This document shows, in pieces, positions 1,782 to 15,918 of a DNA stretch of 35,563 bases; position 1 is the stretch's first letter; the number at the start of each line of letters is the position of its first letter. A model generated the notes under the pieces. It saw nothing but the letters and a program-made list of their open reading frames with translations, was not told the origin of the DNA and did no database searches. The stretch comes from a virus, in IMG/VR virus record IMGVR_UViG_3300045988_077109; one strand, given 5' to 3'. Both the position numbers and the translations under genes were made by a program.

Positions 1782-3119
1782 ATGGCACATTTATATGTAA
1801 TAGCCGGTCATGGTGCCGGTGATTGCGGAGCAGTAGGATATGGATATACGGAGGCAGAGCGTGTACGTGCGCTCGCTTCCAGATTATCAGCGCTGGGAGG
1901 TAGTAATGTTACTATTGCAGACACAAACCGAAACTGGTATGCCGATAATGGTATTATGAGCTTAAATATTCCGAAAGATTGGCAGATTCTGGAATTACAC
2001 ATGGACAGCGCAGGAGCTTCGGCAAAGGGCGGTCATGTTATCATCAATTCTGCTTATAGCGCAGACCAGTACGACACGGCACTGGCAAGTTTTATCGGCT
2101 CGTTTTTTCCGGGACGTGCAAAAAATATCATTCCAAGAAGCGACCTCGCCAACCCGAACAGGGCTGCCGCAAGAGGATATAGCTATCGACTTCTGGAAAA
2201 TGGCTTTATCACAAATTCTGGCGATCTGAATAAATTTAACAGTCAGATGGATGATCTGGCAAGAGGTATCCTTAATGCATTCGGCATCGCTACGGCATCT
2301 CCGGCAAAAGAGGATTCTGACGGTAAAGTAACAGCTGGTGGAACATCTCAGGACTCCGTACAGCATTACGGTAAGGTATCCTACCAGTCACATATCCGCG
2401 ACATCGGATGGGCGTGCTGGCAGTCTGACGGTCGTATGTCTGGAACTACTGGACAGAACCGGAGAATCGAAGCGTTCCGACTTATTCCTGTCGGAGAAAC
2501 AGACGTAGTAGTGCATATCAAGGATGTAGGCGATAAGGAATACAAGAATATCTCCAAAGGCACAATCCTTGGCACCACAGGACAGAACAAACGTATCGAA
2601 GCAATCAAGATTACCGGAAAAGATACGCCATATATCTACAGAGTTCATCAGAAAAACATCGGATGGACAGATTGGACATTCAATGGATCATGGGCTGGCA
2701 CAAAAGGAAAAGGGCTGCAAATTGAAGCGATTGAGATCATGGCTGCTAAATTCCTTGTCAATCCACACGTCCAGAACAGAGGCTGGTTAGGAGAGAGAGC
2801 TTGCGAGAATATCATTGGTATTACAGGACATAACCTTAGATTAGAAGCATTTAAGATTGATCCGCTTAATATGACAATTAAAGCAAAAGCTCACATTCAG
2901 GGAATTGGTTGGAAAGATTATGGTCAAATTGACAAAAATACTGTAATCGGAACTGTAGGGGAAAATAAAAGAATTGAATGTTTATGTTTCAAAGGTGATT
3001 TTGAATACAGAGTACATATCCAGAACAGCGGCTGGACTGATTGGACAAAAGCTGATGGGGTAGCAACACTCGGAACTGTGGGACAGGCACTAAGAATTGA
3101 AGCGATTCAGTTTAGATAG
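1782..3119 (+). CDS. endolysin: N-acetylmuramoyl-L-alanine amidase (Amidase_3-like) plus six ChW cell-wall-binding repeats
   Basis: N-terminus HLYVIAGHGAGDCGAVGYGYTEAERVRAL...LELHMDS resembles a MurNAc-LAA zinc amidase. The C-terminal half is made of repeats of the form Y-x-x-H-x-x-x-x-GW-x-x-W...GTTGQ-x-x-RIEA, typical of clostridial ChW repeats. Confidence 0.9.
   Translation: MAHLYVIAGHGAGDCGAVGYGYTEAERVRALASRLSALGGSNVTIADTNRNWYADNGIMSLNIPKDWQILELHMDSAGASAKGGHVIINSAYSADQYDTALASFIGSFFPGRAKNIIPRSDLANPNRAAARGYSYRLLENGFITNSGDLNKFNSQMDDLARGILNAFGIATASPAKEDSDGKVTAGGTSQDSVQHYGKVSYQSHIRDIGWACWQSDGRMSGTTGQNRRIEAFRLIPVGETDVVVHIKDVGDKEYKNISKGTILGTTGQNKRIEAIKITGKDTPYIYRVHQKNIGWTDWTFNGSWAGTKGKGLQIEAIEIMAAKFLVNPHVQNRGWLGERACENIIGITGHNLRLEAFKIDPLNMTIKAKAHIQGIGWKDYGQIDKNTVIGTVGENKRIECLCFKGDFEYRVHIQNSGWTDWTKADGVATLGTVGQALRIEAIQFR
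2364..3116 (+). repeat. six tandem ChW-type coding repeats inside the endolysin
   Basis: Repeat cores are SHIRDIGWACW..GTTGQNRRIEAF, (degenerate) GTTGQNKRIEAI, HQKNIGWTDW..GTKGKGLQIEAI, HVQNRGWLGE..GITGHNLRLEAF, HIQGIGWKDY..GTVGENKRIECL and HIQNSGWTDW..GTVGQALRIEAI. Confidence 0.85.
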
Positions 3120-3321: not shown

Positions 3322-4851
3322 TCAGCGAGAAATACGCGGAAAAACGTCTATGGAAAAAGAAGAATGTCGTTGGCCACGGGCGTTTTTCTCTGTTTTTGTA
3401 AAATCTATTCTTTCAATCACATTCTTCAAAGCTGTATTTTTATCTGCAGCATCAAAAGTATCCCATGCATTTAGAAGTTCTTGACATTTAGGGACAAATG
3501 TGGAGCGGTTCTTTTTCGACAAATCGAGACGCACGATATCAGCATTCACAGATTCAATTTTCTTATCAAAATCTTTTATTTTATCTTCCAGAGCAGCAGA
3601 ACGCTCAAAGAAAATCTCTTTTGTATAAATCCCCTGCTCTAATAAATCGAATAAGGATCCCCGTTGCTTCAGAGTTGTTTCCTTTTCTTTTTCCAAATTC
3701 ACAAGAATGGACCGGAGAGATTCTTGCTCGGAATCATCTGTACTTTCAAAATTGTTTACCTTGTAGTCAGCTATGTAGTTGCGGATCCATTCCAGGACAG
3801 CGTTTTCGAGTTCTTCAAGTTCAATAGCTACAGTGGCGCATCCGGCATATTGGCAAATAAGATAATCACGAGGCTGTTTGGAGGACATTTTTTTTCTAAC
3901 CATGACACGCCCGCAACAAGAACACCGGACGATTCCGGCGAACGGGTTCTGAATTCTACAGCTACGTTTTACCGGAGCGGTCATGGAAGAGTTTACAGAG
4001 TTCGCCCGGTAATAGAGATCTTCCGAGATACATCCAGGATGTTTTCCTTTTACTAAAATATAATCATCTGCCTTCGGACGGCTGGTTGCGATTTTTCCAT
4101 TTACAATTGCTTTTTGTGATTTTCGATAATTCCAACGTAACATTCCTATATTTACAGGGTTTGAAATGATTGTTTTTACAGTAGCCGGATTAAAAGGCTT
4201 TCCACTACGAGAAACGATTCCCATGCCGGTTAATGCAGAACAGGTCTTCTGGAATCCGTATTTTTTATTCCCCATAAAATCATACATCAGTTTCAAAACC
4301 GGATTTTCTTTTTCGTCTGGTACGAGCGTAAAATGCTTGCAATCATCCGCTTTTACACGCCTCCAACCGTATGGAGCGATGTTGCCGACATAATATCCGT
4401 CTTTTACAGATCGAATACGCCCAGCCTGCATCCTACGTTTAATAGTGGCATATTCACGCCGGGACATAAAAAGAGAGAACTCGAAGTATTCATTGTCGTT
4501 CTCAATCGCTGGATTATAAGTCTTTCCTGGAGTAACGATCAGAGTGTTGGAGTAGAAGAAAGCTCTCTGAACACGTCCTTGATCAATAGTGTCACCTCTG
4601 GCAAGACGTTCCACTTCCATAACAAGGACACCTTCCCAGATACCGGATTCAACTTCGGATAAAAGGCGGACCATTTCCGGTCTAGCATCGATGCTATCTC
4701 CGGATACGACTTCTCTGTAAATAGCTCCGATCGGAAGGCTTCTGGCACGTGCAAGTTCAAGAAGAGTTTCCTCATGACGTTTCAAAACATCAATTCCGAG
4801 TGCTTCAAGGTCGGAATCTTTTCTGGATTTTCTTAAATAAATTACATACAT
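3322..4851 (-). CDS. int: large serine recombinase (phage integrase), 509 aa
   Basis: N-terminal resolvase-type catalytic domain (YVIYLRKSRKDS...VLVMEVERLARG) and a central recombinase domain. A Cys-rich zinc ribbon follows (VRCSCCGRVMVRKK...LICQYAGC), then a coiled coil. SD aaaggag precedes the start. Confidence 0.93.
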   Translation of the reverse strand: MYVIYLRKSRKDSDLEALGIDVLKRHEETLLELARARSLPIGAIYREVVSGDSIDARPEMVRLLSEVESGIWEGVLVMEVERLARGDTIDQGRVQRAFFYSNTLIVTPGKTYNPAIENDNEYFEFSLFMSRREYATIKRRMQAGRIRSVKDGYYVGNIAPYGWRRVKADDCKHFTLVPDEKENPVLKLMYDFMGNKKYGFQKTCSALTGMGIVSRSGKPFNPATVKTIISNPVNIGMLRWNYRKSQKAIVNGKIATSRPKADDYILVKGKHPGCISEDLYYRANSVNSSMTAPVKRSCRIQNPFAGIVRCSCCGRVMVRKKMSSKQPRDYLICQYAGCATVAIELEELENAVLEWIRNYIADYKVNNFESTDDSEQESLRSILVNLEKEKETTLKQRGSLFDLLEQGIYTKEIFFERSAALEDKIKDFDKKIESVNADIVRLDLSKKNRSTFVPKCQELLNAWDTFDAADKNTALKNVIERIDFTKTEKNARGQRHSSFSIDVFPRISR

Positions 4852-4922
4852 AATGTATCAGCTCCTTTGTATTTTATGAAAAAAAGGGTACAAAAATAAC
4901 AGCCTGAGAACTTTTGTTCTCT

Positions 4923-4951
4923 TGCGTGGCTGCTCCGGAGATGATACAATA
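4923..4951 (+). promoter_or_regulatory. candidate sigma-70 promoter facing the small zinc-ribbon gene
   Basis: TTGCGT (4923..4928), 17-nt spacer, TACAAT (4946..4951), with TG at 4943..4944 (extended -10). It lies in the int / zinc-ribbon divergent intergenic region. Confidence 0.5.
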
Positions 4952-5016
4952 TTATTGCATTTGGGTATCTCTTCGGAGAACTTAATGAGAACAGGAACAG
5001 AGAGTGAGGTGATGGG

Positions 5017-5199
5017 ATGGAATGTCCAAGATGTGGAAGTAAGCAAATTAACGGAAATGCAAATTTCTGTGTAAAATGTGGAGCAAAATTAAGACCTGTG
5101 TGCAACTGTTGGGTATTAAAAAAGGACAACTATACATGCGGTGAAGATAGTTGTCCAGGGTATAGGATGTTGGTTAAACTCGCTAAACAAAAAAATTAA
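5017..5199 (+). CDS. small zinc-ribbon protein (60 aa)
   Basis: MECPRCGSKQINGNANFCVKCGAKL is a classic CPxCG...FCxxCG zinc ribbon, with four more Cys downstream. SD gaggtga is upstream. Confidence 0.65.
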   Translation: MECPRCGSKQINGNANFCVKCGAKLRPVCNCWVLKKDNYTCGEDSCPGYRMLVKLAKQKN

Positions 5200-5672
5200 G
5201 GATAAATTACTTTCTTTGCAGATTCAGTAATGCAATCAACGAGGAGCTGATACAAAGAATCTTTAAGGATTTGTCCAGCTTTTCCTATAGCAGATCGGTA
5301 CTTTGCGGTTGCAATAGGAGTTTCGGGTGTTTCAACAAGCAAATTAGGAATGGCATTTTTAATTATCGATTTCGTATCTGAATCGAGATCTTCATCAAGT
5401 GATAGAAGTTCGATAGCACTATCCAAGATTTTTTGTGTCCATGGATACGGTTTTCCACAATGATAGCAATAGAAAGGTTTTTGATCCAACGGTTCGGGTA
5501 CGAACAGAATATCATACTCGTAATAACTACCATGAATAGGTTTTCCACAAGAAGGACATTTGTCAAAAGCTTTTGAACCGCATTGGGGGCAAAAGGAATA
5601 AGAGAATTTTTCAATATCGCTAGTTATTATATGCCCGTTTTCACAGATTTGAGCTGTAAGAAAGTTTCCCAT
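5196..5672 (-). CDS. DUF2321-like zinc-ribbon protein with a helical C-terminal domain (158 aa)
   Basis: AQICENGHIITS...FCPQCGSKAFDKCPSCGKPIHG...FYCYHCGKPYPWT matches my recollection of the DUF2321/COG4306 pattern. SD aagggag precedes the start. The stop overlaps the convergent gene in the palindrome TTAA (5196..5199). Confidence 0.75.
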   Translation of the reverse strand: MGNFLTAQICENGHIITSDIEKFSYSFCPQCGSKAFDKCPSCGKPIHGSYYEYDILFVPEPLDQKPFYCYHCGKPYPWTQKILDSAIELLSLDEDLDSDTKSIIKNAIPNLLVETPETPIATAKYRSAIGKAGQILKDSLYQLLVDCITESAKKVIYP

Positions 5673-5712
5673 GTGTAACGTATTCTCCCTTCTTTATTAC
5701 TTGGCACGGTAA

Positions 5713-5770
5713 TGCCTGTAGTTAAAGTATAGGAGAATCGGGTGGAAAGAGCAACAGAGAAAAAGTGAGG
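5713..5770. repeat. copy A of the duplicated intergenic promoter module
   Basis: Shares the identical 22-mer gtagttaaagtataggagaatc (5718..5739) and similar flanks with 6605..6662. Confidence 0.85.
5726..5754 (-). promoter_or_regulatory. leftward sigma-70 promoter of the DUF2321-like gene
   Basis: On the minus strand: TTGCTC (5754..5749), 17-nt spacer, TATACT (5731..5726). The same arrangement is conserved in copy B. Confidence 0.6.
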
Positions 5771-5776
5771 AAGGAA

Positions 5777-6058
5777 ATGAAGAAAAGAATTTTAGAAATC
5801 ATGACAGTAACGGTTTTGACTATGTCGGTTTTAAGTGGATGCAAAGGATTCGCTACGACAGAGACGGAGTATGATACAGAATCGAAAGATATAAAATCAA
5901 TGTTTGTTGAAGTAGAAAAAAATAATGATTGGGTGATTGTGTATGACAAAAAAACGAAAGTTATGTATGCAGTATCTGATTATTCGTATGGCAGTGGAGT
6001 GTTCACAGAACTTGTAGATGAAAATGGTCGGCCGAGATTGTGGGAAGGAAAGGAATAA
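5777..6058 (+). CDS. small lipoprotein, DUF6440-like (93 aa)
   Basis: ATG 5777 follows gaggaagg. The signal peptide MKKRILEIMTVTVLTMSVLSGC carries the lipobox LSGC. The mature part VIVYDKKTKVMYAVSDYSYGSGVFTELVDENGRP resembles the DUF6440 pattern as I recall it. Confidence 0.75.
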   Translation: MKKRILEIMTVTVLTMSVLSGCKGFATTETEYDTESKDIKSMFVEVEKNNDWVIVYDKKTKVMYAVSDYSYGSGVFTELVDENGRPRLWEGKE

Positions 6059-6061
6059 AAA

Positions 6062-6256
6062 ATGAACATTTGCGAAGCAACAAAGAAAGCACTGGAAGAA
6101 AACAAGTGTATAAGAGAGAAACCTTATAAGGTAAAAGTAAAACCTATAAAGGGAGATGTCGGGACGATAATGGGACTGGATGGGAGCCATCCTGTTAAAG
6201 GATGGCAGCCAACAGCCAGAGAGTTGATTTCTGAGTCGTGGGAAGTTATGGAATAA
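6062..6256 (+). CDS. short DUF2829-like (Tad2-like) protein (64 aa)
   Basis: MNICEATKKALEENKCIR...GWQPTARELISESWEVME. The N-terminal M-N-x-x-EA-x-x-AL-x-x-x-K and the C-terminal W-x-P-x-x-x-x-L-x-x-x-x-W-E-V fit my recollection of DUF2829. It starts 4 nt after the lipoprotein gene. Confidence 0.6.
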   Translation: MNICEATKKALEENKCIREKPYKVKVKPIKGDVGTIMGLDGSHPVKGWQPTARELISESWEVME

Positions 6257-6569
6257 ATTGAGCCAGAAAATTTACGACATTAAGAAGAGTTTCCTTTTTC
6301 TGGTTTTCCATGGTGACAATGGCTTTATCGGTAAGGGAAGAATCGTAAATAAAATCACTGGCATGATGATTGTCAAGATATCCATTACGACCTAATTCGC
6401 ACATACAATCGTCAACATCGGAAACAGACCAATCAGGGAAAAGCAATTTCTGAACAGGTTCGGATGAATCAAATTCTTTCGAAGCGCTGCGGGAAAGACC
6501 GTTAGAACGGCGTAGACAATATTCTTTGTATAGATGATAAAGAACGGTTTTTGAATCTTTTGTAAGCAT
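6246..6569 (-). CDS. YjcQ-like winged-helix protein (107 aa), candidate repressor
   Basis: I chose the second ATG (6569) because aaaggag lies 7 nt upstream. MLTKDSKTVLYHLYKEY...DDCMCELGRNGYLD...LTDKAIVTMENQ resembles B. subtilis YjcQ (from memory). It sits in the position normally held by cI. Confidence 0.7.
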   Translation of the reverse strand: MLTKDSKTVLYHLYKEYCLRRSNGLSRSASKEFDSSEPVQKLLFPDWSVSDVDDCMCELGRNGYLDNHHASDFIYDSSLTDKAIVTMENQKKETLLNVVNFLAQFIP

Positions 6570-6604
6570 AACGGAGCTCCTTTCTTTGATACTCAGCATG
6601 GCAG

Positions 6605-6662
6605 TGCCGGTAGTTAAAGTATAGGAGAATCTGATGAAAAGGGCAACAGGAAAGAAAGAGGT
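6605..6662. repeat. copy B of the duplicated intergenic promoter module
   Basis: Identical 22-mer at 6610..6631. The flanks match 5713..5770 at roughly three quarters of positions, aligned by eye. Confidence 0.85.
6618..6646 (-). promoter_or_regulatory. leftward sigma-70 promoter of the YjcQ-like gene
   Basis: On the minus strand: TTGCCC (6646..6641), 17-nt spacer, TATACT (6623..6618). Confidence 0.6.
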
Positions 6663-6668
6663 GATGAA

Positions 6669-7400
6669 ATGCAGGAATTGTTGAAAATTAGTTATGAAGC
6701 AGAAAATCCGACTGTTTCAGCAAGAGAGTTGCATGATCAGCTGAATATCGGGACCAAGTTCACAACATGGTTTCAGAGAATGACAGAATATGGATTTTCT
6801 GAAAATACAGACTACAAAACTTGCTACCCAAATTTGGGAAGCGAGAACCACGGTGGACAGAACATGGTTGACTATCAGATATCTGTGGATATGGCAAAAG
6901 AGATTTGTATGATCCAGCGATCACCGGAAGGCAAACAGATTCGCCAATACTTTATAGATCTGGAGAAAGCCTGGAACACACCGGAACAGATTTTCGCTAG
7001 GGCGTTAAAGATGGCAGATAAGACCATCGAAGAGCTGAAGCACAACAATGCACTCCTTTTGGAAGACAATGTCCGGATGAAACCGAAAGAAGTATTTGCG
7101 GATGCGGTAGCAACAAGCCAGAGCACAATCCTGATTGCGGATCTCGCAAAGCTCCTGAAGCAGAATGGCGTGGATACCGGTCCGAAGAGACTCTTTGAGT
7201 GGCTGCGTGCGAATGGTTATCTGATCCGGAGGAAAGGAACAGACTACAATATGCCAACGCAGAAGTCAATGGAGCTGCAGCTGTTCCAGGTAAAAGAGTC
7301 TACGGTAAATAATCCGGATGGATCCGTGAGAATCAATAAAACTACAAAGGTTACAGGCAAAGGTCAGCAATATTTTATCAATAAGTTTTTAAAAGAGTAG
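6669..7400 (+). CDS. ant: phage antirepressor (AntA N-terminal domain plus KilAC C-terminal domain), 243 aa
   Basis: N-terminus SARELHDQLNIGTKFTTWFQRMTEYGF...DMAKEICMIQRSPEGKQIRQYFIDLE is AntA-like. C-terminus FADAVATSQSTILIADLAKLLKQNGVDTGPKRLFEWLRANGYL is KilAC-like. Confidence 0.88.
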   Translation: MQELLKISYEAENPTVSARELHDQLNIGTKFTTWFQRMTEYGFSENTDYKTCYPNLGSENHGGQNMVDYQISVDMAKEICMIQRSPEGKQIRQYFIDLEKAWNTPEQIFARALKMADKTIEELKHNNALLLEDNVRMKPKEVFADAVATSQSTILIADLAKLLKQNGVDTGPKRLFEWLRANGYLIRRKGTDYNMPTQKSMELQLFQVKESTVNNPDGSVRINKTTKVTGKGQQYFINKFLKE

Positions 7401-7459
7401 GCGAGGACAAAGTAAGAAGGACAATCTGGACAGCATAGCATAAAAAGAGGTGATGATAG

Positions 7460-7612
7460 ATGATTGTTGAAACCATGCAGATCGGTAATGCGACAATACG
7501 TGTGCATGATGATTATTTTGAGAATACCAAGGAAGAAATGCAGCAATGCGCAGATGGATTTTTCAGAGTTCTGATCGAAGCTGCAGAGAGAAAAAAGGAG
7601 AAAACCGCGTAA
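7460..7612 (+). CDS. hypothetical small protein (50 aa)
   Basis: ORF below the track cutoff. aagaggtg lies 8 nt upstream of ATG 7460. MIVETMQIGNATIRVHDDYFENTKEEMQQCADGFFRVLIEAAERKKEKTA, TAA 7610..7612. Confidence 0.55.
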   Translation: MIVETMQIGNATIRVHDDYFENTKEEMQQCADGFFRVLIEAAERKKEKTA

Positions 7613-8462: not shown

Positions 8463-8503
8463 AAAGGTACACGAATAATCTAAGCACTTATAGTGTACCT
8501 TTT
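8463..8503 (+). terminator. stem-loop 2, probable terminator of the ant operon
   Basis: aaaggtacac (8463..8472) pairs with gtgtaccttt (8493..8502), with a 20-nt loop. The T-run is partly inside the stem (cctttt). Confidence 0.45.
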
Positions 8504-8528
8504 AGCGGCTGGAAAGTCAAGTATTTAC

Positions 8529-8546
8529 AGGGCGACTGCCCTTTTT
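8529..8546 (+). terminator. stem-loop 3, short GC hairpin plus T5
   Basis: agggc (8529..8533), loop gact, gccct (8538..8542), then ttttt (8542..8546). Confidence 0.4.
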
Positions 8547-8585: not shown

Positions 8586-9422
8586 ATGAGAATCAGACGA
8601 GTGACATACGATTTGGGAAATGTAATAGAGAGACAGGAATATCTGGATGGAAGATATGGAGCACCGGGAGAGAAGAGAGCCAAGAAGAAGAAGGCCACAC
8701 CGGAGGAAGTGGAGCAGGTCAACCAATGGACCAAGGAGAGGAAAGCACGTCACAGACTCCGGATGTATTTCAAAGTAAATGATTACTTTTTCACACTCAC
8801 ATATCCGAAAGAAGAACGTCCGCCGGACATGAAGCAGGCAAAGCAGGATTTCAAAGAGTTTTACCTGTTCTGCAAGAAGGAATACAAGAAAAGAGGACAG
8901 GAGCTCCGCTGGATCCGCAATATTGAATGTACCCCGTCCGGTAACTGGCACATCCATGTGGTTCTGAATCGAATCCCGGATACAGATTTGATCATAGCTG
9001 CAGCCTGGAAACACGGAAAGGTTCGTAATAAGCAGTTGCTCTATGAGAAAGGCGAGTTCCGGAAGCTGGCGCAATATGTTACCAAAAACGAGAAAACCCA
9101 AAAAAAATATGTGGATGAGGGCGTACTGGATCATGAGATTGCAGAAGCCAATTTTTCTACGTCTCGAAACATGCCGCTTCCAGAACCCAAAACAAAGATT
9201 TTATACCGGTGGCCGAAAGAACCGAAACCACCAAAGGGATATTACATAGTCAAGGATTCTTTTTACGAAGGGATCAACAAAGCAACCGGATTCCCGTACA
9301 GACACTACGAAATGATCCGGATAAGGAGAGAAGATGAAGATAGAACTATACACAGAAGTAAACTTCCGGGGACCAACCGCAAAAAACGGAAAGTGTATCG
9401 CTCTGGTGGAGTGCGAGACTAA
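8586..9422 (+). CDS. rep: HUH-superfamily rolling-circle replication initiator (278 aa)
   Basis: Three RCR motifs occur in the canonical order: FFTLTY (motif 1), WHIHVVL (HUH, motif 2) and LAQYVTKNE (catalytic Tyr, motif 3). The basic N-terminus is GAPGEKRAKKKK. SD gagga is upstream. Confidence 0.8.
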   Translation: MRIRRVTYDLGNVIERQEYLDGRYGAPGEKRAKKKKATPEEVEQVNQWTKERKARHRLRMYFKVNDYFFTLTYPKEERPPDMKQAKQDFKEFYLFCKKEYKKRGQELRWIRNIECTPSGNWHIHVVLNRIPDTDLIIAAAWKHGKVRNKQLLYEKGEFRKLAQYVTKNEKTQKKYVDEGVLDHEIAEANFSTSRNMPLPEPKTKILYRWPKEPKPPKGYYIVKDSFYEGINKATGFPYRHYEMIRIRREDEDRTIHRSKLPGTNRKKRKVYRSGGVRD

Positions 9423-13255: not shown

Positions 13256-13473
13256 AAGTTGGAGACAAAGTACAGTTAAGGCGCAGGATCTCCCAGAAGG
13301 GAGGTAAAACCAGACTCGCTACGGAAAAAGTCACGATTCTTGGAATCTATCCGCACCATGTGCAGGTCAGAAACCAGAAAGGGATTGTGAGGAGCTATAT
13401 AAACTGGGAGTGGCAGCAGTTGACCAGTAAAGAAGGAATGGAAGGCGTGGAATCATGGCGCAGGAAGGGGTAA
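13252..13473 (+). CDS. hypothetical protein (73 aa)
   Basis: Track ORF in a tightly packed same-strand operon. No family recognised. Confidence 0.6.
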   Translation: MKVGDKVQLRRRISQKGGKTRLATEKVTILGIYPHHVQVRNQKGIVRSYINWEWQQLTSKEGMEGVESWRRKG

Positions 13474-13475
13474 CA

Positions 13476-13880
13476 ATGGATAGATTGACAGAATGGATTG
13501 GCGAAGGAGAAGACCGACACGCTATACCAAGAATGGATTTGAGAAAAAACGGACACCAGGCGTGCTGTAATAAGCTGGCAGAATATGAGGATTTAGAAGA
13601 GACTGGAATGATCTCGAAATGGATTCCGGTGAAATGGCATGTGATATTGGATGCCGAACGGGAAGAGGAAGGAATCCCGGATGATATAGTCTATTATCTG
13701 GACTGCCCGATGCCGGAAGATGGTGAAGAAATAATAGTAACAGACGGAAAAAGGGTATGGACCGATGAGAACAGCATAGATATTGTAGGGCATTACTTGG
13801 AAAGTGGAAATGATTGGAAAGATATAAAAGCATGGATGCCACTTCCAAAACCATACAAGAAAGGCGGCAACAATGACTGA
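13476..13880 (+). CDS. DUF551-type protein, paralogue 1 (134 aa)
   Basis: Internal ATG 13476 follows aggaagggg. It carries KWIPV... and the C-terminal AWMPLPKPYK motif shared with 14370, 14725 and 15585. Confidence 0.75.
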   Translation: MDRLTEWIGEGEDRHAIPRMDLRKNGHQACCNKLAEYEDLEETGMISKWIPVKWHVILDAEREEEGIPDDIVYYLDCPMPEDGEEIIVTDGKRVWTDENSIDIVGHYLESGNDWKDIKAWMPLPKPYKKGGNND

Positions 13881-14091
13881 AAAAGAAGTATGCCTGATGT
13901 GTGAAAACTATTCAGAAGATACGAAATGTGATCAGAAAGATAGCTGCAAACTCATGGCAGTATTAAAAGAAAACCGGGCACTAAAGAAAAAAATAAGCAA
14001 GCTGAAACACCAATTGGATGAATCGGAGCTGAAAAGATCATACATGGTAAATCCAAGTGCAATTGGATACCGTAATGATATGGGGTGGTAA
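13873..14091 (+). CDS. hypothetical protein (72 aa)
   Basis: Track ORF with an 8-nt overlap with the upstream gene. Cys-rich N-terminus (CLMCENYSEDTKCDQKDSC) and a coiled-coil-like middle. Confidence 0.6.
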   Translation: MTEKEVCLMCENYSEDTKCDQKDSCKLMAVLKENRALKKKISKLKHQLDESELKRSYMVNPSAIGYRNDMGW

Positions 14092-14096
14092 AGCAA

Positions 14097-14318
14097 ATGG
14101 GACGGAGTATTTATTTCACAGATTTGGAGATTGAAAAGCTGATTGATTATGTATCTAATTCAGTTGAACTGTTGGGAGAAGCAGAAGATACATGGGAGCG
14201 GACTGCCGAGGATATGGAAAATGGACTTGGATCGGCAATAAGAAAATTATATAAAGGCAGAAGAGGCGAAAAGATTTATGCAAAATACAAGACGAAAAGA
14301 GGGAAAAGCAAGAGATAA
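14097..14318 (+). CDS. hypothetical protein (73 aa)
   Basis: Internal ATG 14097 of track ORF 14085..14318. Basic C-terminus. Confidence 0.55.
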   Translation: MGRSIYFTDLEIEKLIDYVSNSVELLGEAEDTWERTAEDMENGLGSAIRKLYKGRRGEKIYAKYKTKRGKSKR

Positions 14319-14369
14319 AATTTCCGAAATTTTTATTTTTCAATTTCCAAAAGAAGAGGAGGTGTAAGT

Positions 14370-14732
14370 ATGAGTAGAAACAGATCATTAGAAGAGATAC
14401 AAGAAGACATTAGAACGCTGACAAGAGTACCATCGGAATTCATTCATGCAAAACTGGATGAGCTGGCAGAAGAGATTGGAGAGTTAGCGAAACCAAAGTG
14501 GATTCCATGCAGTGAACGGATACCTGAAGAGCCAAAAGAAAATCTGGTGTTTGATGGAAAATGTCTTGAAGTGTATTTGGTAACGACAAAATACGGAAGT
14601 AGCGACCAAGACAAAGTATATCCATTTAGGGCTTTTTGGAATGGAATTAATTTCACGGATGGATGGGGAATTTTGGATGTAATAGCATGGATGCCGTTGC
14701 CGGAACCGTATAAGGAGGCTGAAGATGAATAA
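14370..14732 (+). CDS. DUF551-type protein, paralogue 2 (120 aa)
   Basis: SD gaggaggtg is upstream. KWIPCSERIPEEPKE ... VIAWMPLPEPYKE. Confidence 0.8.
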   Translation: MSRNRSLEEIQEDIRTLTRVPSEFIHAKLDELAEEIGELAKPKWIPCSERIPEEPKENLVFDGKCLEVYLVTTKYGSSDQDKVYPFRAFWNGINFTDGWGILDVIAWMPLPEPYKEAEDE

Positions 14733-15051
14733 TCAACAAGCAATAGATAGATTAGTGAAACATCTTGAATGGGGCTGGACTGAGGAAACAGTAGCTGCTA
14801 TTGAAATGGGGATACATGCGCTGAAAGAAACTCAGTGGATTCCAATAAGCGAGAGATTGCCGGAAGATGAAAGCTACATACTGGTATCATTTAAAAACTC
14901 CACAATGCCAGATATCGCAAGGTACGAAGAAAATGGCGGGGGTGGTACATTCTATCCGGGAGATGATGAAAAACCATATTCAAGTTACGGAATATTTGTA
15001 AATGCATGGATGCCGTTGCCGAAGCTGTATAGAGAGGAAGAGTGGTTATGA
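14725..15051 (+). CDS. DUF551-type protein, paralogue 3 (108 aa)
   Basis: SD aggagg is upstream. QWIPISERLPEDESY ... NAWMPLPKLYRE. It shares the identical 18-mer gcatggatgccgttgccg (15004..15021) with paralogue 2 (14685..14702). Confidence 0.8.
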   Translation: MNNQQAIDRLVKHLEWGWTEETVAAIEMGIHALKETQWIPISERLPEDESYILVSFKNSTMPDIARYEENGGGGTFYPGDDEKPYSSYGIFVNAWMPLPKLYREEEWL

Positions 15052-15374: not shown

Positions 15375-15588
15375 GATCGAAGACTTCTTACTGGCAATGG
15401 GAGATTATTGCAGAGAGCATAGTCCTGAAGAGTGTGCTTCTTGCAAAATGAGTGTAGATCATGAAGATCCGGGCGATGGTACAGTTTTTTATGGATGCGC
15501 TATGTTTGGATGCGAGTATCCAAAATATGCCAAGATGGTGAAAAAAGAAATTTTGAAGTACATGAAAGAAAGGAAGAAGGAGAAATGA
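15364..15588 (+). CDS. hypothetical Cys-rich protein (74 aa)
   Basis: ATG 15364 lies 6 nt after gaggtgg, within track ORF 15355..15588. Confidence 0.55.
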   Translation: MKVKIEDFLLAMGDYCREHSPEECASCKMSVDHEDPGDGTVFYGCAMFGCEYPKYAKMVKKEILKYMKERKKEK

Positions 15589-15793
15589 ATAGAGAGATTC
15601 TTTTTAGAGCGAAGAAAGTAGACGGTGGAGAATGGGTTGAAGTGCATATGCAGCGGAGTTTCTGGTCACGATCGAGGGAGCTGATAAGGCAACAACGCTG
15701 TATTATTCCCAGACAGGTGTCTGGTTCGATGAACAGGGAGAACCGTATAAGGTTGTGGCGTGGATGCCGATTCCGGAAAGGTATAAGGGATAA
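15585..15793 (+). pseudogene. frameshifted DUF551-type gene, paralogue 4
   Basis: ATG 15585 (ATGA overlap) opens MNREILFRAKKVDGGEWVE, then continues as Arg-rich nonsense to 15803. The -1 frame, open from 15641, reads SAYAAEFLVTIEGADKATTLYYSQTGVWFDEQGEPYKVVAWMPIPERYKG and stops at 15791..15793. Confidence 0.6.
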
Positions 15794-15918
15794 TGGAAGA
15801 TAAATATACAAAGACACTTGCATGGATAATTACAACAGTTGCAGTAATTATTGCAATGAAATGGACGGGATCAGCGTGGTGCTTATGGGCGCTGTTCATT
15901 CCGGCAATGATAGAGTAG
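15793..15918 (+). CDS. possible small membrane protein (41 aa)
   Basis: ORF below the cutoff: MEDKYTKTLAWIITTVAVIIAMKWTGSAWCLWALFIPAMIE. It has two hydrophobic stretches and a weak SD. Confidence 0.4.
   Translation: MEDKYTKTLAWIITTVAVIIAMKWTGSAWCLWALFIPAMIE

What the first reader, a model, noticed from the sequence alone, without database searches (positions are those of the whole stretch)
5713..6662. Duplicated 58-bp promoter module drives both leftward genes of the lysogeny region
Segments 5713..5770 and 6605..6662 are direct imperfect copies. They share the identical 22-mer gtagttaaagtataggagaatc at 5718..5739 and 6610..6631. On the minus strand each copy reads TTGC(T/C)C, exactly 17 nt, then TATACT, followed about 45-50 nt later by an SD and a leftward gene (DUF2321-like, and YjcQ-like). 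In copy A a plus-strand TTGGCA-16-TAAAGT overlaps the leftward -10 by 3 nt. This gives back-to-back promoters on one AT-rich core, a switch-like layout. In copy B the plus-strand -35 is poor. The larger architecture is also repeated: rightward gene(s), then a stop-overlapping leftward gene, then the module. The overlaps are 4 nt and 11 nt. Two dissimilar genes placed under the same cis element suggests a shared regulator and co-expression in the lysogen.
Basis: seen in the sequence. Interest (0 to 1): 0.7.

Follow-up and report, generated by a model that had tools for sequence, protein, structure and literature searches.

The report
Repeated promoter-leader cassette for prophage accessory genes
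The two repeats are copies of a small promoter, hairpin and ribosome-site cassette that hundreds of human-gut temperate phages place in front of many unrelated small leftward genes, and where gene cassettes are swapped in and out.

Summary
The repeat covers about 100 nt (5685-5785 and 6577-6677), which is the whole divergent intergenic region including both ribosome-binding sites. The exact 22-mer occurs only twice in the window.

Comparison with 197 related viral loci shows a conserved leftward expression cassette. It reads TTGnnn, 17 nt, (CTCC)TATACT, 5 nt, a hairpin whose stem covaries and whose loop is conserved, then AAAGGAG and ATG. At least 51 unrelated small proteins sit under this cassette. 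They share their strand with the XRE repressor in 53 of 53 loci.

About 29% of these loci carry 2-4 copies, always in the same orientation. Relatives differ by indels that begin and end inside the module. L002 has one hybrid module and lacks window 5763-6576.

The leftward-promoter reading is therefore well supported.
- the rightward promoter in copy A;
- the "switch" layout;
- a shared regulator in the form of the 107-aa protein.

The closest known analogue is the PeSL cassette of T4-type phages, with morons as the second. Transcription, RNA stability and expression in lysogens remain inferred. I rate it a new variant of a known kind, of moderate interest.

The parts
5666..5759 (-). Module copy A, the full promoter-leader cassette in front of the DUF2321 gene.
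   Evidence: Covariance-model hit of 75.1 bits, E 4.7e-14. It aligns with 76 other distinct modules.
6559..6651 (-). Module copy B, the full promoter-leader cassette in front of the 107-aa gene.
   Evidence: Covariance-model hit of 84.3 bits, E 5.3e-16.
5749..5754 (-). Copy A -35 hexamer, TTGCTC.
   Evidence: Read. TTG at this position, 17 nt from the -10, is kept across unrelated spacers.
5726..5731 (-). Copy A -10 hexamer, TATACT, preceded by CTCC.
   Evidence: The family -10 is TATACT 44, TATTCT 12, TATCCT 12 and TATAAT 10 of 84.
5698..5720 (-). Copy A leader hairpin. On the leftward RNA it reads UAC-A-GGCA-UUACCG-UGCC-AA-GUA. The predicted transcription start is near 5719.
   Evidence: Covariation in the family alignment. 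There are 5 nt between the -10 and TAC in 78 of 84 modules. The predicted fold includes the inner stem.
5685..5689 (-). Copy A Shine-Dalgarno sequence, GGGAG. The start codon is at 5672-5670.
   Evidence: The family consensus is AAAGGAG, about 7 nt, then ATG.
6641..6646 (-). Copy B -35 hexamer, TTGCCC.
6618..6623 (-). Copy B -10 hexamer, TATACT.
6590..6612 (-). Copy B leader hairpin. On the leftward RNA it reads UAC-CGGCA-CUGCCA-UGCUG-A-GUA, with one G.U pair. The predicted transcription start is near 6611.
   Evidence: The G.U pair forms only on the leftward RNA.
6577..6584 (-). Copy B Shine-Dalgarno sequence, GAAAGGAG. The start codon is at 6569-6567.
   Evidence: and the alignment to the model.
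5196..5672 (-). Cargo of copy A: a 158-aa DUF2321 zinc-ribbon protein of unknown function.
   Evidence: Pfam PF10083, E 1e-44. phrog_16447, unknown function.
6246..6569 (-). Cargo of copy B: a 107-aa protein of family phrog_750, unknown function.
   Evidence: phrog_750, E 1.4e-24. No Pfam hit.
5763..6576 (.). Indel cassette bounded by the two modules. It holds the DUF6440-like lipoprotein gene 5777-6058 (+), the 64-aa gene 6062-6256 (+) and the 107-aa gene (-). It is absent from L002 and L241.
   Evidence: blastn of the window against L002. The hybrid module in L002 is shown.
6669..7400 (+). Right neighbour of copy B: an AntA/KilAC antirepressor gene. It is a neighbour of the module, not part of it.
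   Evidence: Pfam PF03374, E 1e-35, and PF08346, E 1e-25.
5701..5728 (+). Plus-strand TTGGCA-16-TAAAGT in copy A. It is present but probably fortuitous.
   Evidence: The hexamers are not conserved in the family.

Best explanation
Each copy is a compact, portable expression cassette for a leftward accessory gene.

Anatomy. The cassette is a housekeeping-sigma promoter: TTGnnn, 17 nt, TATACT, usually with CTCC just upstream of the -10. Transcription probably starts about 7 nt after the -10. That point is the base of a small stem-loop with an inner stem of 4-6 bp and an outer UAC/GUA stem. A strong Shine-Dalgarno sequence (AAAGGAG) follows 7-9 nt later, and the start codon about 7 nt after that.

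Proposed action. A hairpin at the 5' end combined with a strong ribosome-binding site is the arrangement known to protect Firmicute mRNAs from 5'-end-dependent decay. The cassette would therefore give robust expression that does not depend on a regulator. The genes it drives point the same way as the integrase and repressor genes and against the early lytic operon. They are probably expressed from the prophage.

Why there are two copies. The same cassette precedes dozens of unrelated genes in a large family of gut Firmicute temperate phages. It therefore also provides short homology at which phages exchange, gain and lose gene cassettes. The window has two filled slots separated by an 892-bp unit.

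Status of each step.
- Shown: the sequence anatomy, its conservation, the stem covariation, the diversity of the cargo, the orientation, and indels that end within the module.
- Inferred: promoter activity, the position of the transcription start, mRNA stabilisation, expression in lysogens, and recombination as the process that produced the indels.
For: - Repeat. It is real and exactly twofold in the window.
- Promoter. In the scan anchored on the hairpin alone, the 84 distinct modules have TTGACT, TTGTCT and similar -35 hexamers. The spacer is 17 nt in 73 of 84. The -10 is TATACT, TATTCT, TATCCT or TATAAT in 78 of 84. Exactly 5 nt separate the -10 from the hairpin in 78 of 84. TTG keeps its 17-nt spacing in six unrelated right flanks.
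- Hairpin. On a MAFFT alignment of 77 distinct modules, 80% of cells are paired. The covariation score is 0.235, against 0.118 in shuffles (0 of 500 reach it) and at most 0.096 when the partners are slid. Pair 48-57 is AU 49, UA 18, GC 2, CG 1. Pair 49-56 is CG 17, UA 11, AU 3. There are 23 different stem sequences.
- Strand. G.U pairs in the four core stem pairs fit the leftward RNA 24 times and the rightward RNA 2 times.
- Leader. The Shine-Dalgarno sequence and ATG sit at a fixed short distance from the hairpin.
- Cargo. 249 instances drive at least 51 unrelated protein families, mostly PHROGs of unknown function.
- Orientation. Module-driven genes share their strand with the XRE repressor in 53 of 53 loci and with the serine integrase in 25 of 26.
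- Arrays. Of 197 loci, 140 have 1 module, 48 have 2, 8 have 3 and 1 has 4. All 57 multi-copy loci have their modules on one strand. Spacing is 96-1585 nt, median 648.
- Exchange. L002 and L241 have a single hybrid module with copy A's left side and copy B's right side, and lack window 5763-6576. Other assemblies lack the unit made of the 107-aa gene, its module and ant. Hairpin classes and upstream classes are reassorted: 47 by 80 classes give 104 combinations.
- Cultured example. Phage RG-TP1 of Mediterraneibacter gnavus has one module between gp49 (-) and ant.
- Established knowledge. A 5' stem-loop plus ribosome binding stabilises B. subtilis aprE leader mRNA, and phage SP82 carries a 5' stabiliser. 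Both come from references 109 and 179 of PMC3997798.
Against: - No transcript data exist, so the promoter, the transcription start and lysogenic expression are all inferred.
- Sigma-70-like hexamer pairs occur at chance frequency across the window: 35 found against 38.6 +/- 5.9 in shuffles. The case therefore rests entirely on comparative conservation.
- Folding energies of the two leaders are not unusual, with z-scores of -0.93 and +0.20.
- Part of the module set was collected with patterns that imposed AAAGTATAGGAGAA and CAA. Only the hairpin-anchored set is unbiased for the promoter, and that set fixes one hairpin sequence.
- At the loop-closing positions, C.A mismatches are common on the leftward RNA (35 and 19 cases). 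These would be G.U pairs on the rightward RNA, so the functional strand is not fully settled.
- The conserved loop (YRCY) and the CTCC motif are not explained by a plain stabiliser.
- No terminator follows either cargo gene.
- Many modules are closely related to one another, so some of the conservation reflects recent common descent.
Confidence: 0.7

Rival explanations
1. This is the first reader's model: a bidirectional switch. Overlapping back-to-back promoters sit on one core, under a shared repressor such as the 107-aa protein. The leftward genes would be on in the lysogen and the rightward genes on during lytic growth.
For: - Copy A has a 9-of-12 plus-strand match, TTGGCA-16-TAAAGT, which overlaps the leftward -10.
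- The rightward genes begin only 20-25 nt beyond the leftward -35. Any dedicated rightward promoter would therefore have to overlap the module.
- This window lacks the strong PR promoter seen in relatives, so some other rightward promoter is needed.
- The 14-22 nt core is more conserved than a bare promoter requires.
Against: - The plus-strand '-35' is the covarying left arm of the hairpin.
- The first base of the plus-strand '-10' is T, G, A or C across the family. Its final T is lost in the 24 of 84 modules whose leftward -10 is TATCCT or TATTCT.
- The best opposite-strand score averages 7.5 of 12, against 8.7 for the leftward strand.
- The 107-aa protein is encoded in only 11 of 238 loci and is absent from RG-TP1.
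- The dyad differs between the two copies of a single phage. L009, for example, has GGGTA/TACCC in one copy and CAGCA/TGCTG in the other.
- The module occurs in phages with different repressors and different replication modules.
Confidence: 0.1
2. The hairpin and conserved core act on the rightward read-through RNA that crosses the leftward gene in antisense. They could be a processing or stabilising site, or a binding site for an RNA-binding factor, that generates or controls the downstream early mRNA such as ant.
For: - The loop-closing positions favour G.U pairs on the rightward RNA, 35 and 19 cases.
- On average the plus strand folds slightly better than its complement.
- The loop sequence is conserved, GGCA on this strand.
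- No rightward promoter is evident, so read-through RNA probably exists and would contain the element.
Against: - The hairpin sits at a fixed 5 nt from the leftward -10 and 7-9 nt from the leftward Shine-Dalgarno sequence. That register is only meaningful for the leftward transcript.
- The core-stem G.U pairs favour the leftward RNA 24 to 2.
- No U-tract follows the stem on either strand, so it is not an intrinsic terminator.
- No Rfam family matches.
Confidence: 0.12
3. The repeat is a recent local duplication or recombination scar with no function of its own.
For: The two copies share a perfect 22-mer, and their flanks are 75% identical.
Against: - The same element is present in more than 200 independent viral contigs, with the conservation pattern of a promoter and a hairpin.
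- The two copies have different hairpin stems and different flanks that recur separately in other phages.
Confidence: 0.03
4. The hairpin is a DNA-level site: either an origin or nick site for the HUH Rep protein encoded at 8586-9422, or a site for a recombinase.
For: - The window encodes a Rep_ORF2/G2P-type protein.
- The element has a conserved loop and a variable stem, as rolling-circle origins do.
- Indels are bounded by the element.
Against: - RG-TP1 and many other contigs have the module with a different replication module (Sak4, DUF669, primase) and no such Rep.
- The element is phased with a promoter and a ribosome-binding site.
- The crossover in L002 lies in the 22-mer, not at the hairpin loop.
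Confidence: 0.03

Closest known systems
PeSLs, the promoter-early stem-loop 'mobile regulatory cassettes' of T4-type phages (Arbiol et al. 2010, PMC2839356; Comeau et al. 2014, PMC4122927)
   Same: Both are short repeated intergenic motifs made of a sigma-70-type promoter, a stem-loop, a Shine-Dalgarno sequence and a start codon. Both sit in front of ORFan genes in the most variable part of the genome. In both, indels and replacements between close relatives end in the motif. One PeSL subclass also has the stem-loop just downstream of the -10.
   Different: PeSLs belong to lytic myoviruses of Gram-negative hosts. They drive early genes in the main direction of transcription. [quoted passage not shown] Here the phages are temperate siphovirus-like phages of Firmicutes. 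The cassette points against the early operon and with int and cI. The stem is small (4-6 bp), has no U-tract and has a conserved loop. There are 1-4 copies per genome, not about 50. The sequences are unrelated.
Morons of lambdoid phages: accessory genes with their own promoter and terminator, expressed from the prophage. The concept of Hendrix and colleagues is cited from my own knowledge. PMC7067206 reviews accessory or 'moron' loci that are expressed in lysogens.
   Same: Both are autonomously promoted accessory genes of unknown or host-benefit function. Both are inserted between phage genes and are present or absent among close relatives. The orientation here fits expression while the lytic genes are repressed.
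   Different: Classic morons each have their own, different promoter and a terminator. Here one shared promoter-leader serves more than 50 gene families. No terminator follows the genes. Their stop codons overlap the convergent rightward genes.
5' mRNA stabilisers of Firmicutes: the aprE leader 5' stem-loop plus ribosome-binding site, and the phage SP82 stabiliser (references 109 and 179 in PMC3997798)
   Same: Both combine a stem-loop at or within a few nucleotides of the 5' end with a strong Shine-Dalgarno sequence close behind it.
   Different: A stabilising effect has not been tested here. The conserved loop sequence is not a known requirement of such stabilisers.
Hypervariable small-ORF regions of clostridial gut prophages that carry acrIIA22 (Forsberg et al. 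2021, PMC8545432)
   Same: Both concern human-gut clostridial prophages with rapidly reshuffled arrays of small ORFs of unknown function. In that study no recombinase explained the gene turnover.
   Different: That paper describes no cis element. I did not show that its loci contain this module. The 53-aa cargo protein I tested has no match to any solved structure, AcrIIA22 included.

Membership tests
Sigma-70 / sigma-A type promoter | -35 TTGACA-like and -10 TATAAT-like hexamers separated by 17 +/- 1 nt. | tested here: met
   Copy A is TTGCTC-17-TATACT and copy B is TTGCCC-17-TATACT. In the family the spacer is 17 nt in 73 of 84 modules and the -35 begins with TTG in nearly all.
Sigma-70 / sigma-A type promoter | The hexamers are conserved in relatives while the spacer and flanks diverge. 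| tested here: met
Sigma-70 / sigma-A type promoter | A mapped transcription start 6-8 nt downstream of the -10. | not testable with these tools
   This needs 5' RACE or dRNA-seq. The predicted starts are about 5719 and 6611.
PeSL (T4-type promoter-early stem-loop cassette) | A repeated composite motif of sigma-70 promoter, stem-loop, Shine-Dalgarno sequence and start codon. | tested here: met
   The definition is taken from PMC2839356.
PeSL (T4-type promoter-early stem-loop cassette) | Placed upstream of ORFans in hyperplastic regions, with indels between relatives ending in the motif. | tested here: met
   At least 51 cargo families of unknown function. Indels are shown.
PeSL (T4-type promoter-early stem-loop cassette) | The stem-loop is a strong terminator or attenuator of upstream transcription (G/C-rich). 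| tested here: not met
   The stem is 4-6 bp with no U-tract on either strand. The terminator scan does not report it. Terminator function was not measured.
PeSL (T4-type promoter-early stem-loop cassette) | [quoted passage not shown] | tested here: not met
   The ribosome-binding site of the divergent gene lies directly upstream of the -35. The genome context is a temperate phage with an integrase.
Moron | An accessory gene with its own promoter, present or absent among close relatives. | tested here: met
Moron | Its own transcription terminator downstream of the gene. | tested here: not met
   The stop codons overlap the convergent genes by 4 and 11 nt, and no terminator-like site lies nearby.
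Moron | Expressed from the repressed prophage. | not testable with these tools
   The orientation is consistent, sharing the strand with XRE in 53 of 53 loci. No transcript data exist.
5' stem-loop mRNA stabiliser (aprE type) | A stem-loop at or within a few nucleotides of the 5' end, followed by a strong ribosome-binding site. | tested here: inconclusive
   The geometry fits: 5 nt from the -10 to the hairpin in 78 of 84 modules, with AAAGGAG 7-9 nt after it. The transcription start is only predicted.
5' stem-loop mRNA stabiliser (aprE type) | The stem-loop lengthens mRNA half-life. | not testable with these tools
   This needs rifampicin chase experiments with stem mutants.
Repressor operator (dyad-symmetric protein-binding site) | The half-site sequence is conserved among sites bound by one regulator. 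| tested here: not met
   The stem arms vary by compensatory changes, with 23 distinct stem sequences. They also differ between the copies in one genome.
Repressor operator (dyad-symmetric protein-binding site) | The site co-occurs with the proposed regulator, the 107-aa protein. | tested here: not met
   Only 11 of 238 loci encode a homologue, and RG-TP1 has none.
Any Rfam RNA family | A covariance-model match. | tested here: not met
   No match falls within either module at E<=10. The five weak hits in 4800-7500 all lie elsewhere and score below their gathering cut-offs.
Intrinsic terminator | A G+C-rich stem followed by a U-tract. | tested here: not met

The most novel reading that the evidence does not exclude
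The module is the cis-acting organiser of a previously undescribed hypervariable array of accessory genes in temperate phages of gut Lachnospiraceae and related Firmicutes.
- It acts as a shared promoter-leader cassette.
- It has a structure-conserved hairpin whose conserved loop is read by a dedicated host or phage factor.
- It keeps all cargo genes on in the lysogen.
- It serves as the crossover point for shuffling cassettes between phages.

If this is right, the covariance model becomes a direct handle for mining hundreds of prophage-expressed ORFans from gut viromes. These would be candidates for superinfection exclusion or defence functions.
Probability: 0.3. Interest if true: 0.65.

Novelty: new variant of a known kind. 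Interest (0 to 1): 0.5.

Why it matters
- Finding genes. The module would be a simple sequence tag, 93 nt and searchable with a covariance model. It marks genes that temperate gut phages probably express from the prophage. At least 51 unrelated families are already tagged, and almost all are of unknown function. Such genes are where phage-encoded exclusion, defence and host-modifying functions are usually found, and they are hard to pick out in metagenomes.
- Phage evolution. It would extend the PeSL idea, in which a regulatory cassette doubles as a recombination linker, from lytic T4-like phages to temperate Firmicute phages.
- Engineering. It offers a compact, natural promoter-leader part for expression in Lachnospiraceae, which are hard to engineer.
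- This window. The two leftward genes need no special shared regulator to be co-expressed.

Tried and rejected
- Genome-contig scan with the 20-mer gave one chance hit, a ribosome-binding-site-like sequence in a Bacteroidales MAG. The host could not be identified this way.
- Cultured-phage database: the module matched only RG-TP1. The surrounding 2.7 kb matched only antirepressor genes. The replication region matched weakly to Faecalibacterium phages.
- Rfam: nothing at the modules.
- Single-sequence folding z-scores were not significant.
- The window-wide sigma-70 scan was at chance level, so it is uninformative on its own.
- Upstream ORF idea. AGGAG in the core is followed by ATG 6 nt later in copy B, giving a 16-codon ORF that overlaps the ant start. 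Other right-flank types have no start codon there, so I rejected it as a general feature.
- Sigma-54 resemblance of TGGCAC-N5-TGC in copy A. I rejected it by reading the sequence: the GG-to-GC spacing is one nucleotide short, copy B lacks it, and the bases covary as a stem.
- Rolling-circle origin for the window's HUH Rep. Rejected because the module occurs with unrelated replication modules.
- The 107-aa protein as main repressor. Rejected because L003, L243, L244 and L246 carry an XRE repressor as well, and co-occurrence with the module is poor.
- Link to AcrIIA22. The 53-aa cargo protein has no match to a solved structure, so no link was shown.
- Pfam support for 'YjcQ-like': none.
Full report
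**1. The observation**

The 22-mer GTAGTTAAAGTATAGGAGAATC lies at 5718-5739 and 6610-6631. It has no other match in the 35.5-kb window, even at 3 mismatches, and none is expected by chance.

The repeat is larger than the 58 bp reported. Positions 5685-5785 and 6577-6677 are 75% identical over 101 nt without gaps. The pairwise alignment runs from the ribosome-binding site of the leftward gene to the start codon of the rightward gene. The whole divergent intergenic region is therefore duplicated, 892 bp apart.

- Copy B has TTGCCC-17-TATACT on the minus strand.
- Copy A has TTGCTC-17-TATACT on the minus strand (read).
- Copy A has TTGGCA-16-TAAAGT on the plus strand, overlapping the leftward -10 by 3 nt.
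- The stop-codon overlaps of 4 and 11 nt are correct.

One correction concerns the second leftward gene. It starts at ATG 6569 (107 aa), preceded by GAAAGGAG. It does not start at the upstream ATG at 6599 that a mechanical ORF call gives.

**2. Gene context**

- 3322-4851 (-): large serine recombinase.
- 5017-5199 (+): 60-aa zinc-ribbon protein.
- 5196-5672 (-): DUF2321 protein (E 1e-44).
- 5777-6058 (+): DUF6440-like lipoprotein.
- 6062-6256 (+): 64-aa protein with only a sub-threshold Tad2-like hit.
- 6246-6569 (-): the 107-aa protein. It has no Pfam hit and belongs to phrog_750, of unknown function.
- 6669-7400 (+): AntA/KilAC antirepressor.
- Then a replication module (HUH Rep, RNase H, ParB-like) and structural genes.

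**3. Relatives show what the repeat is**

Finding the family:
- A scan of IMG/VR with the 22-mer found seven contigs.
- Looser scans found many more. The pattern AAAGTATAGGAGAA-N14-CAA hit more than 119 contigs.
- The commonest hairpin sequence alone, which does not constrain the promoter, hit more than 120 further contigs.
- A covariance model built from 77 distinct modules finds the element in 197 of the fetched loci.
- In the window it finds exactly two copies, at 84 and 75 bits. The next hit scores 12 bits.
- The only cultured phage carrying it is Ruminococcus phage RG-TP1 of Mediterraneibacter gnavus. It has one copy, between gp49 (-) and ant.

Read in the leftward direction, the family consensus is:

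TTG(A/C/T)nn - 17 nt - (CTCC)TATACT - 5 nt - UAC-A-[stem of 4-6 bp, loop, stem]-GA-GUA - 7-9 nt - AAAGGAG - about 7 nt - ATG

Conservation in the 84 distinct modules of the set that is unbiased for the promoter:
- The spacer is 17 nt in 73.
- The -10 is TATACT in 44, TATTCT in 12, TATCCT in 12 and TATAAT in 10.
- Exactly 5 nt separate the -10 from the hairpin in 78.

In the first small set, TTG stays exactly 17 nt from TATACT in six right flanks whose spacers are otherwise unrelated. This is the conservation pattern of a housekeeping-sigma promoter whose transcript starts at the base of the hairpin.

**4. The hairpin**

On the MAFFT alignment, which was not fitted to any structure:
- 80% of cells are paired.
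- The covariation score is 0.235. Column shuffles give 0.118, and 0 of 500 reach the observed value. Sliding the partners gives at most 0.096.
- Pair 48-57 is AU 49, UA 18, GC 2, CG 1. Pair 49-56 is CG 17, UA 11, AU 3.
- There are 23 different stem sequences among the 77 modules. The loop is nevertheless almost always C-UGCC-A or a close variant, with a central YRCY.

Which strand is functional:
- In the four core stem pairs, G.U pairs fit the leftward RNA 24 times and the rightward RNA twice.
- Copy B of the window is itself such a case (CGGCA/UGCUG).
- At the loop-closing positions the bias is reversed, so the strand is not completely settled.
- The fixed register with the leftward -10 and the leftward Shine-Dalgarno sequence argues for the leftward transcript.

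The single-sequence folding energies are unremarkable, as expected for so small a stem. No U-tract follows the stem on either strand, and no Rfam family matches.

**5. What sits under the module**

- Across 249 instances the leftward gene belongs to at least 51 unrelated families. The right-hand neighbour belongs to at least 58.
- The cargo proteins I tested are DUF2513, DUF2321, small membrane proteins, and PHROG families without known function.
- Module-driven genes share their strand with an XRE-type repressor in 53 of 53 loci. They share it with the serine integrase in 25 of 26 loci where these genes can be recognised. They point against the early lytic operon in which they are embedded.

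**6. Why there are two copies**

- Of the 197 loci, 140 have one module, 48 have two, 8 have three and 1 has four.
- All 57 multi-copy loci have their modules on one strand. Spacing is 96-1585 nt, median 648.
- The window's pair is therefore the ordinary state of a multi-slot array.

Close relatives differ by indels that begin and end in the module:
- L002 and L241 have one hybrid module. Its left half and the DUF2321 gene are those of copy A. Its right half and ant are those of copy B. They lack window 5763-6576.
- L243, L244 and L246 have the window's two-module arrangement.
- L239, L240 and L245 lack the unit made of the 107-aa gene, its module and ant.
- L006 has a different first gene in the cassette.
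- Hairpin types and upstream types are reassorted across the family: 47 by 80 classes give 104 combinations.

The module is thus both an expression signal and the place where cassettes are exchanged. That homologous recombination produced these patterns is an inference from the patterns themselves.

**7.

The rightward promoter in copy A is probably fortuitous:
- Its -35 is the left arm of the covarying stem.
- The first base of its -10 is T, G, A or C across the family.
- Its last base disappears wherever the leftward -10 is TATCCT or TATTCT.

The rightward genes start only 20-25 nt beyond the leftward -35. In relatives they are most simply explained as read-through from the strong PR next to cro, which in L002 is TTGACA-17-TATAAT.

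The proposed regulator, the 107-aa protein, does not fit:
- It is encoded in only 11 of 238 loci and not in RG-TP1.
- It coexists with an ordinary XRE repressor in L003 and elsewhere.

The dyad cannot be a common operator, because its sequence differs between copies within one genome.

**8. Mechanism**

The best-supported reading is a constitutive promoter-leader cassette. RNA polymerase holoenzyme starts at the hairpin base. The 5'-terminal stem-loop together with a strong Shine-Dalgarno sequence then protects the short leader.

This is the arrangement known from the B. subtilis aprE leader and the SP82 stabiliser. I take both from references 109 and 179 in PMC3997798. Nothing of this was tested on the element itself.

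Two features remain unexplained and could indicate a trans-acting factor: the conserved loop, and the CTCC motif just upstream of the -10 in 50 of 84 modules.

**9. Comparison with known systems**

- PeSLs of T4-type phages are the closest analogue. They are repeated units of promoter, stem-loop, Shine-Dalgarno sequence and ATG in front of ORFans, and recombination between them shuffles cassettes (PMC2839356, PMC4122927). The present element shares that logic. It fails three PeSL features: a terminator-grade G/C-rich stem, an AT-rich upstream region, and a T4-type lytic context. It is also unrelated in sequence.
- Morons are the second analogue. The element resembles them in having an autonomous promoter and presence/absence polymorphism. 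It lacks a terminator, and it uses one shared promoter for all cargo genes.
- Prior description. My literature searches found no description of this element. They covered only open-access text.
- acrIIA22 loci. The hypervariable small-ORF prophage regions reported around acrIIA22 in gut clostridia had no identified cis element (PMC8545432). I could not show any link to them.

**10. Verdict**

The element is a new variant of a known kind, of moderate interest. Its main value is as a searchable tag for prophage accessory genes in gut viromes. All functional steps still need transcript mapping and mutagenesis.

Noticed in passing
window 4982-4998 (compare L002 290-2955; L243 3661-6190): The window has no cI/cro immunity block. 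Near-identical relatives carry 2.7-3.5 kb between the integrase and the zinc-ribbon gene. This block holds an XRE repressor, a cro-like gene, and either an ion-channel gene or a DUF4236 gene. The window has no XRE homologue anywhere (tblastn E>1). It may be a deletion variant, so how it would maintain lysogeny or drive its early genes is unclear.
   Followed up: partly
module hairpin loops, window 5707-5712 and 6599-6604; family alignment A2 columns 50-55: The loop sequence is conserved (C-UGCC-A, central YRCY on the leftward RNA) while the stem takes 23 different sequences. A plain stabiliser hairpin does not explain this. It may mark recognition by a protein or an RNA.
   Followed up: partly
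window 5732-5735 and 6624-6627 (CTCC on the minus strand, just upstream of the -10): CTCC directly precedes the -10 in 50 of 84 promoter-unbiased modules. It is not the usual TG extended -10. Its complement is an SD-like AGGAG on the rightward strand. Only in the ant-type flank is it followed by ATG (6634), giving a 16-codon upstream ORF that overlaps the ant start.
   Followed up: partly
L138 869-3125 (also L161, L194, L218, L224): Some phages carry arrays of three or four modules, 460-1100 nt apart, each with its own small leftward gene. Some of these have no rightward gene between them.
   Followed up: partly
window 5196-5672: The exact 158-aa DUF2321 protein is recorded in 929 blocks of public assemblies, on contigs of up to about 90 kb. 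This prophage lineage is therefore very common in human-gut metagenomes.
   Followed up: no
window 6062-6256: The 64-aa protein has only a sub-threshold match to the Tad2-like (Thoeris anti-defence) domain: E 0.006, 17.5 bits against a cut-off of 25. An anti-defence role is a lead, not a finding.
   Followed up: no
window 13455-15051 and about 15585-15795: Three adjacent genes have DUF551-type C-terminal domains, two above the Pfam cut-off and one (13455-13880) sub-threshold. A fourth small ORF ends in a similar AWMP-type motif. This looks like a tandem paralogue array in the early or middle region.
   Followed up: no
window 8492-8542: A terminator-like hairpin with a T-tract lies at 8529-8542 (+), just upstream of the HUH Rep gene (8586-9422). 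A leftward TTGACT-17-TACACT match lies at 8520-8492. Together they may mark a boundary between transcription units.
   Followed up: no
window 1782-3119: The 445-aa lysin candidate has a C-terminal region of about eight repeats, each containing GW...W motifs (IGW/SGW...DW). It looks like a repeat-type cell-wall-binding domain. I did not analyse it.
   Followed up: no
window 6570-6599: The mechanical ORF call 6246-6599 (117 aa) starts only about 12 nt downstream of the predicted transcription start and has no Shine-Dalgarno sequence. Gene callers in public assemblies use the 107-aa start.
   Followed up: yes
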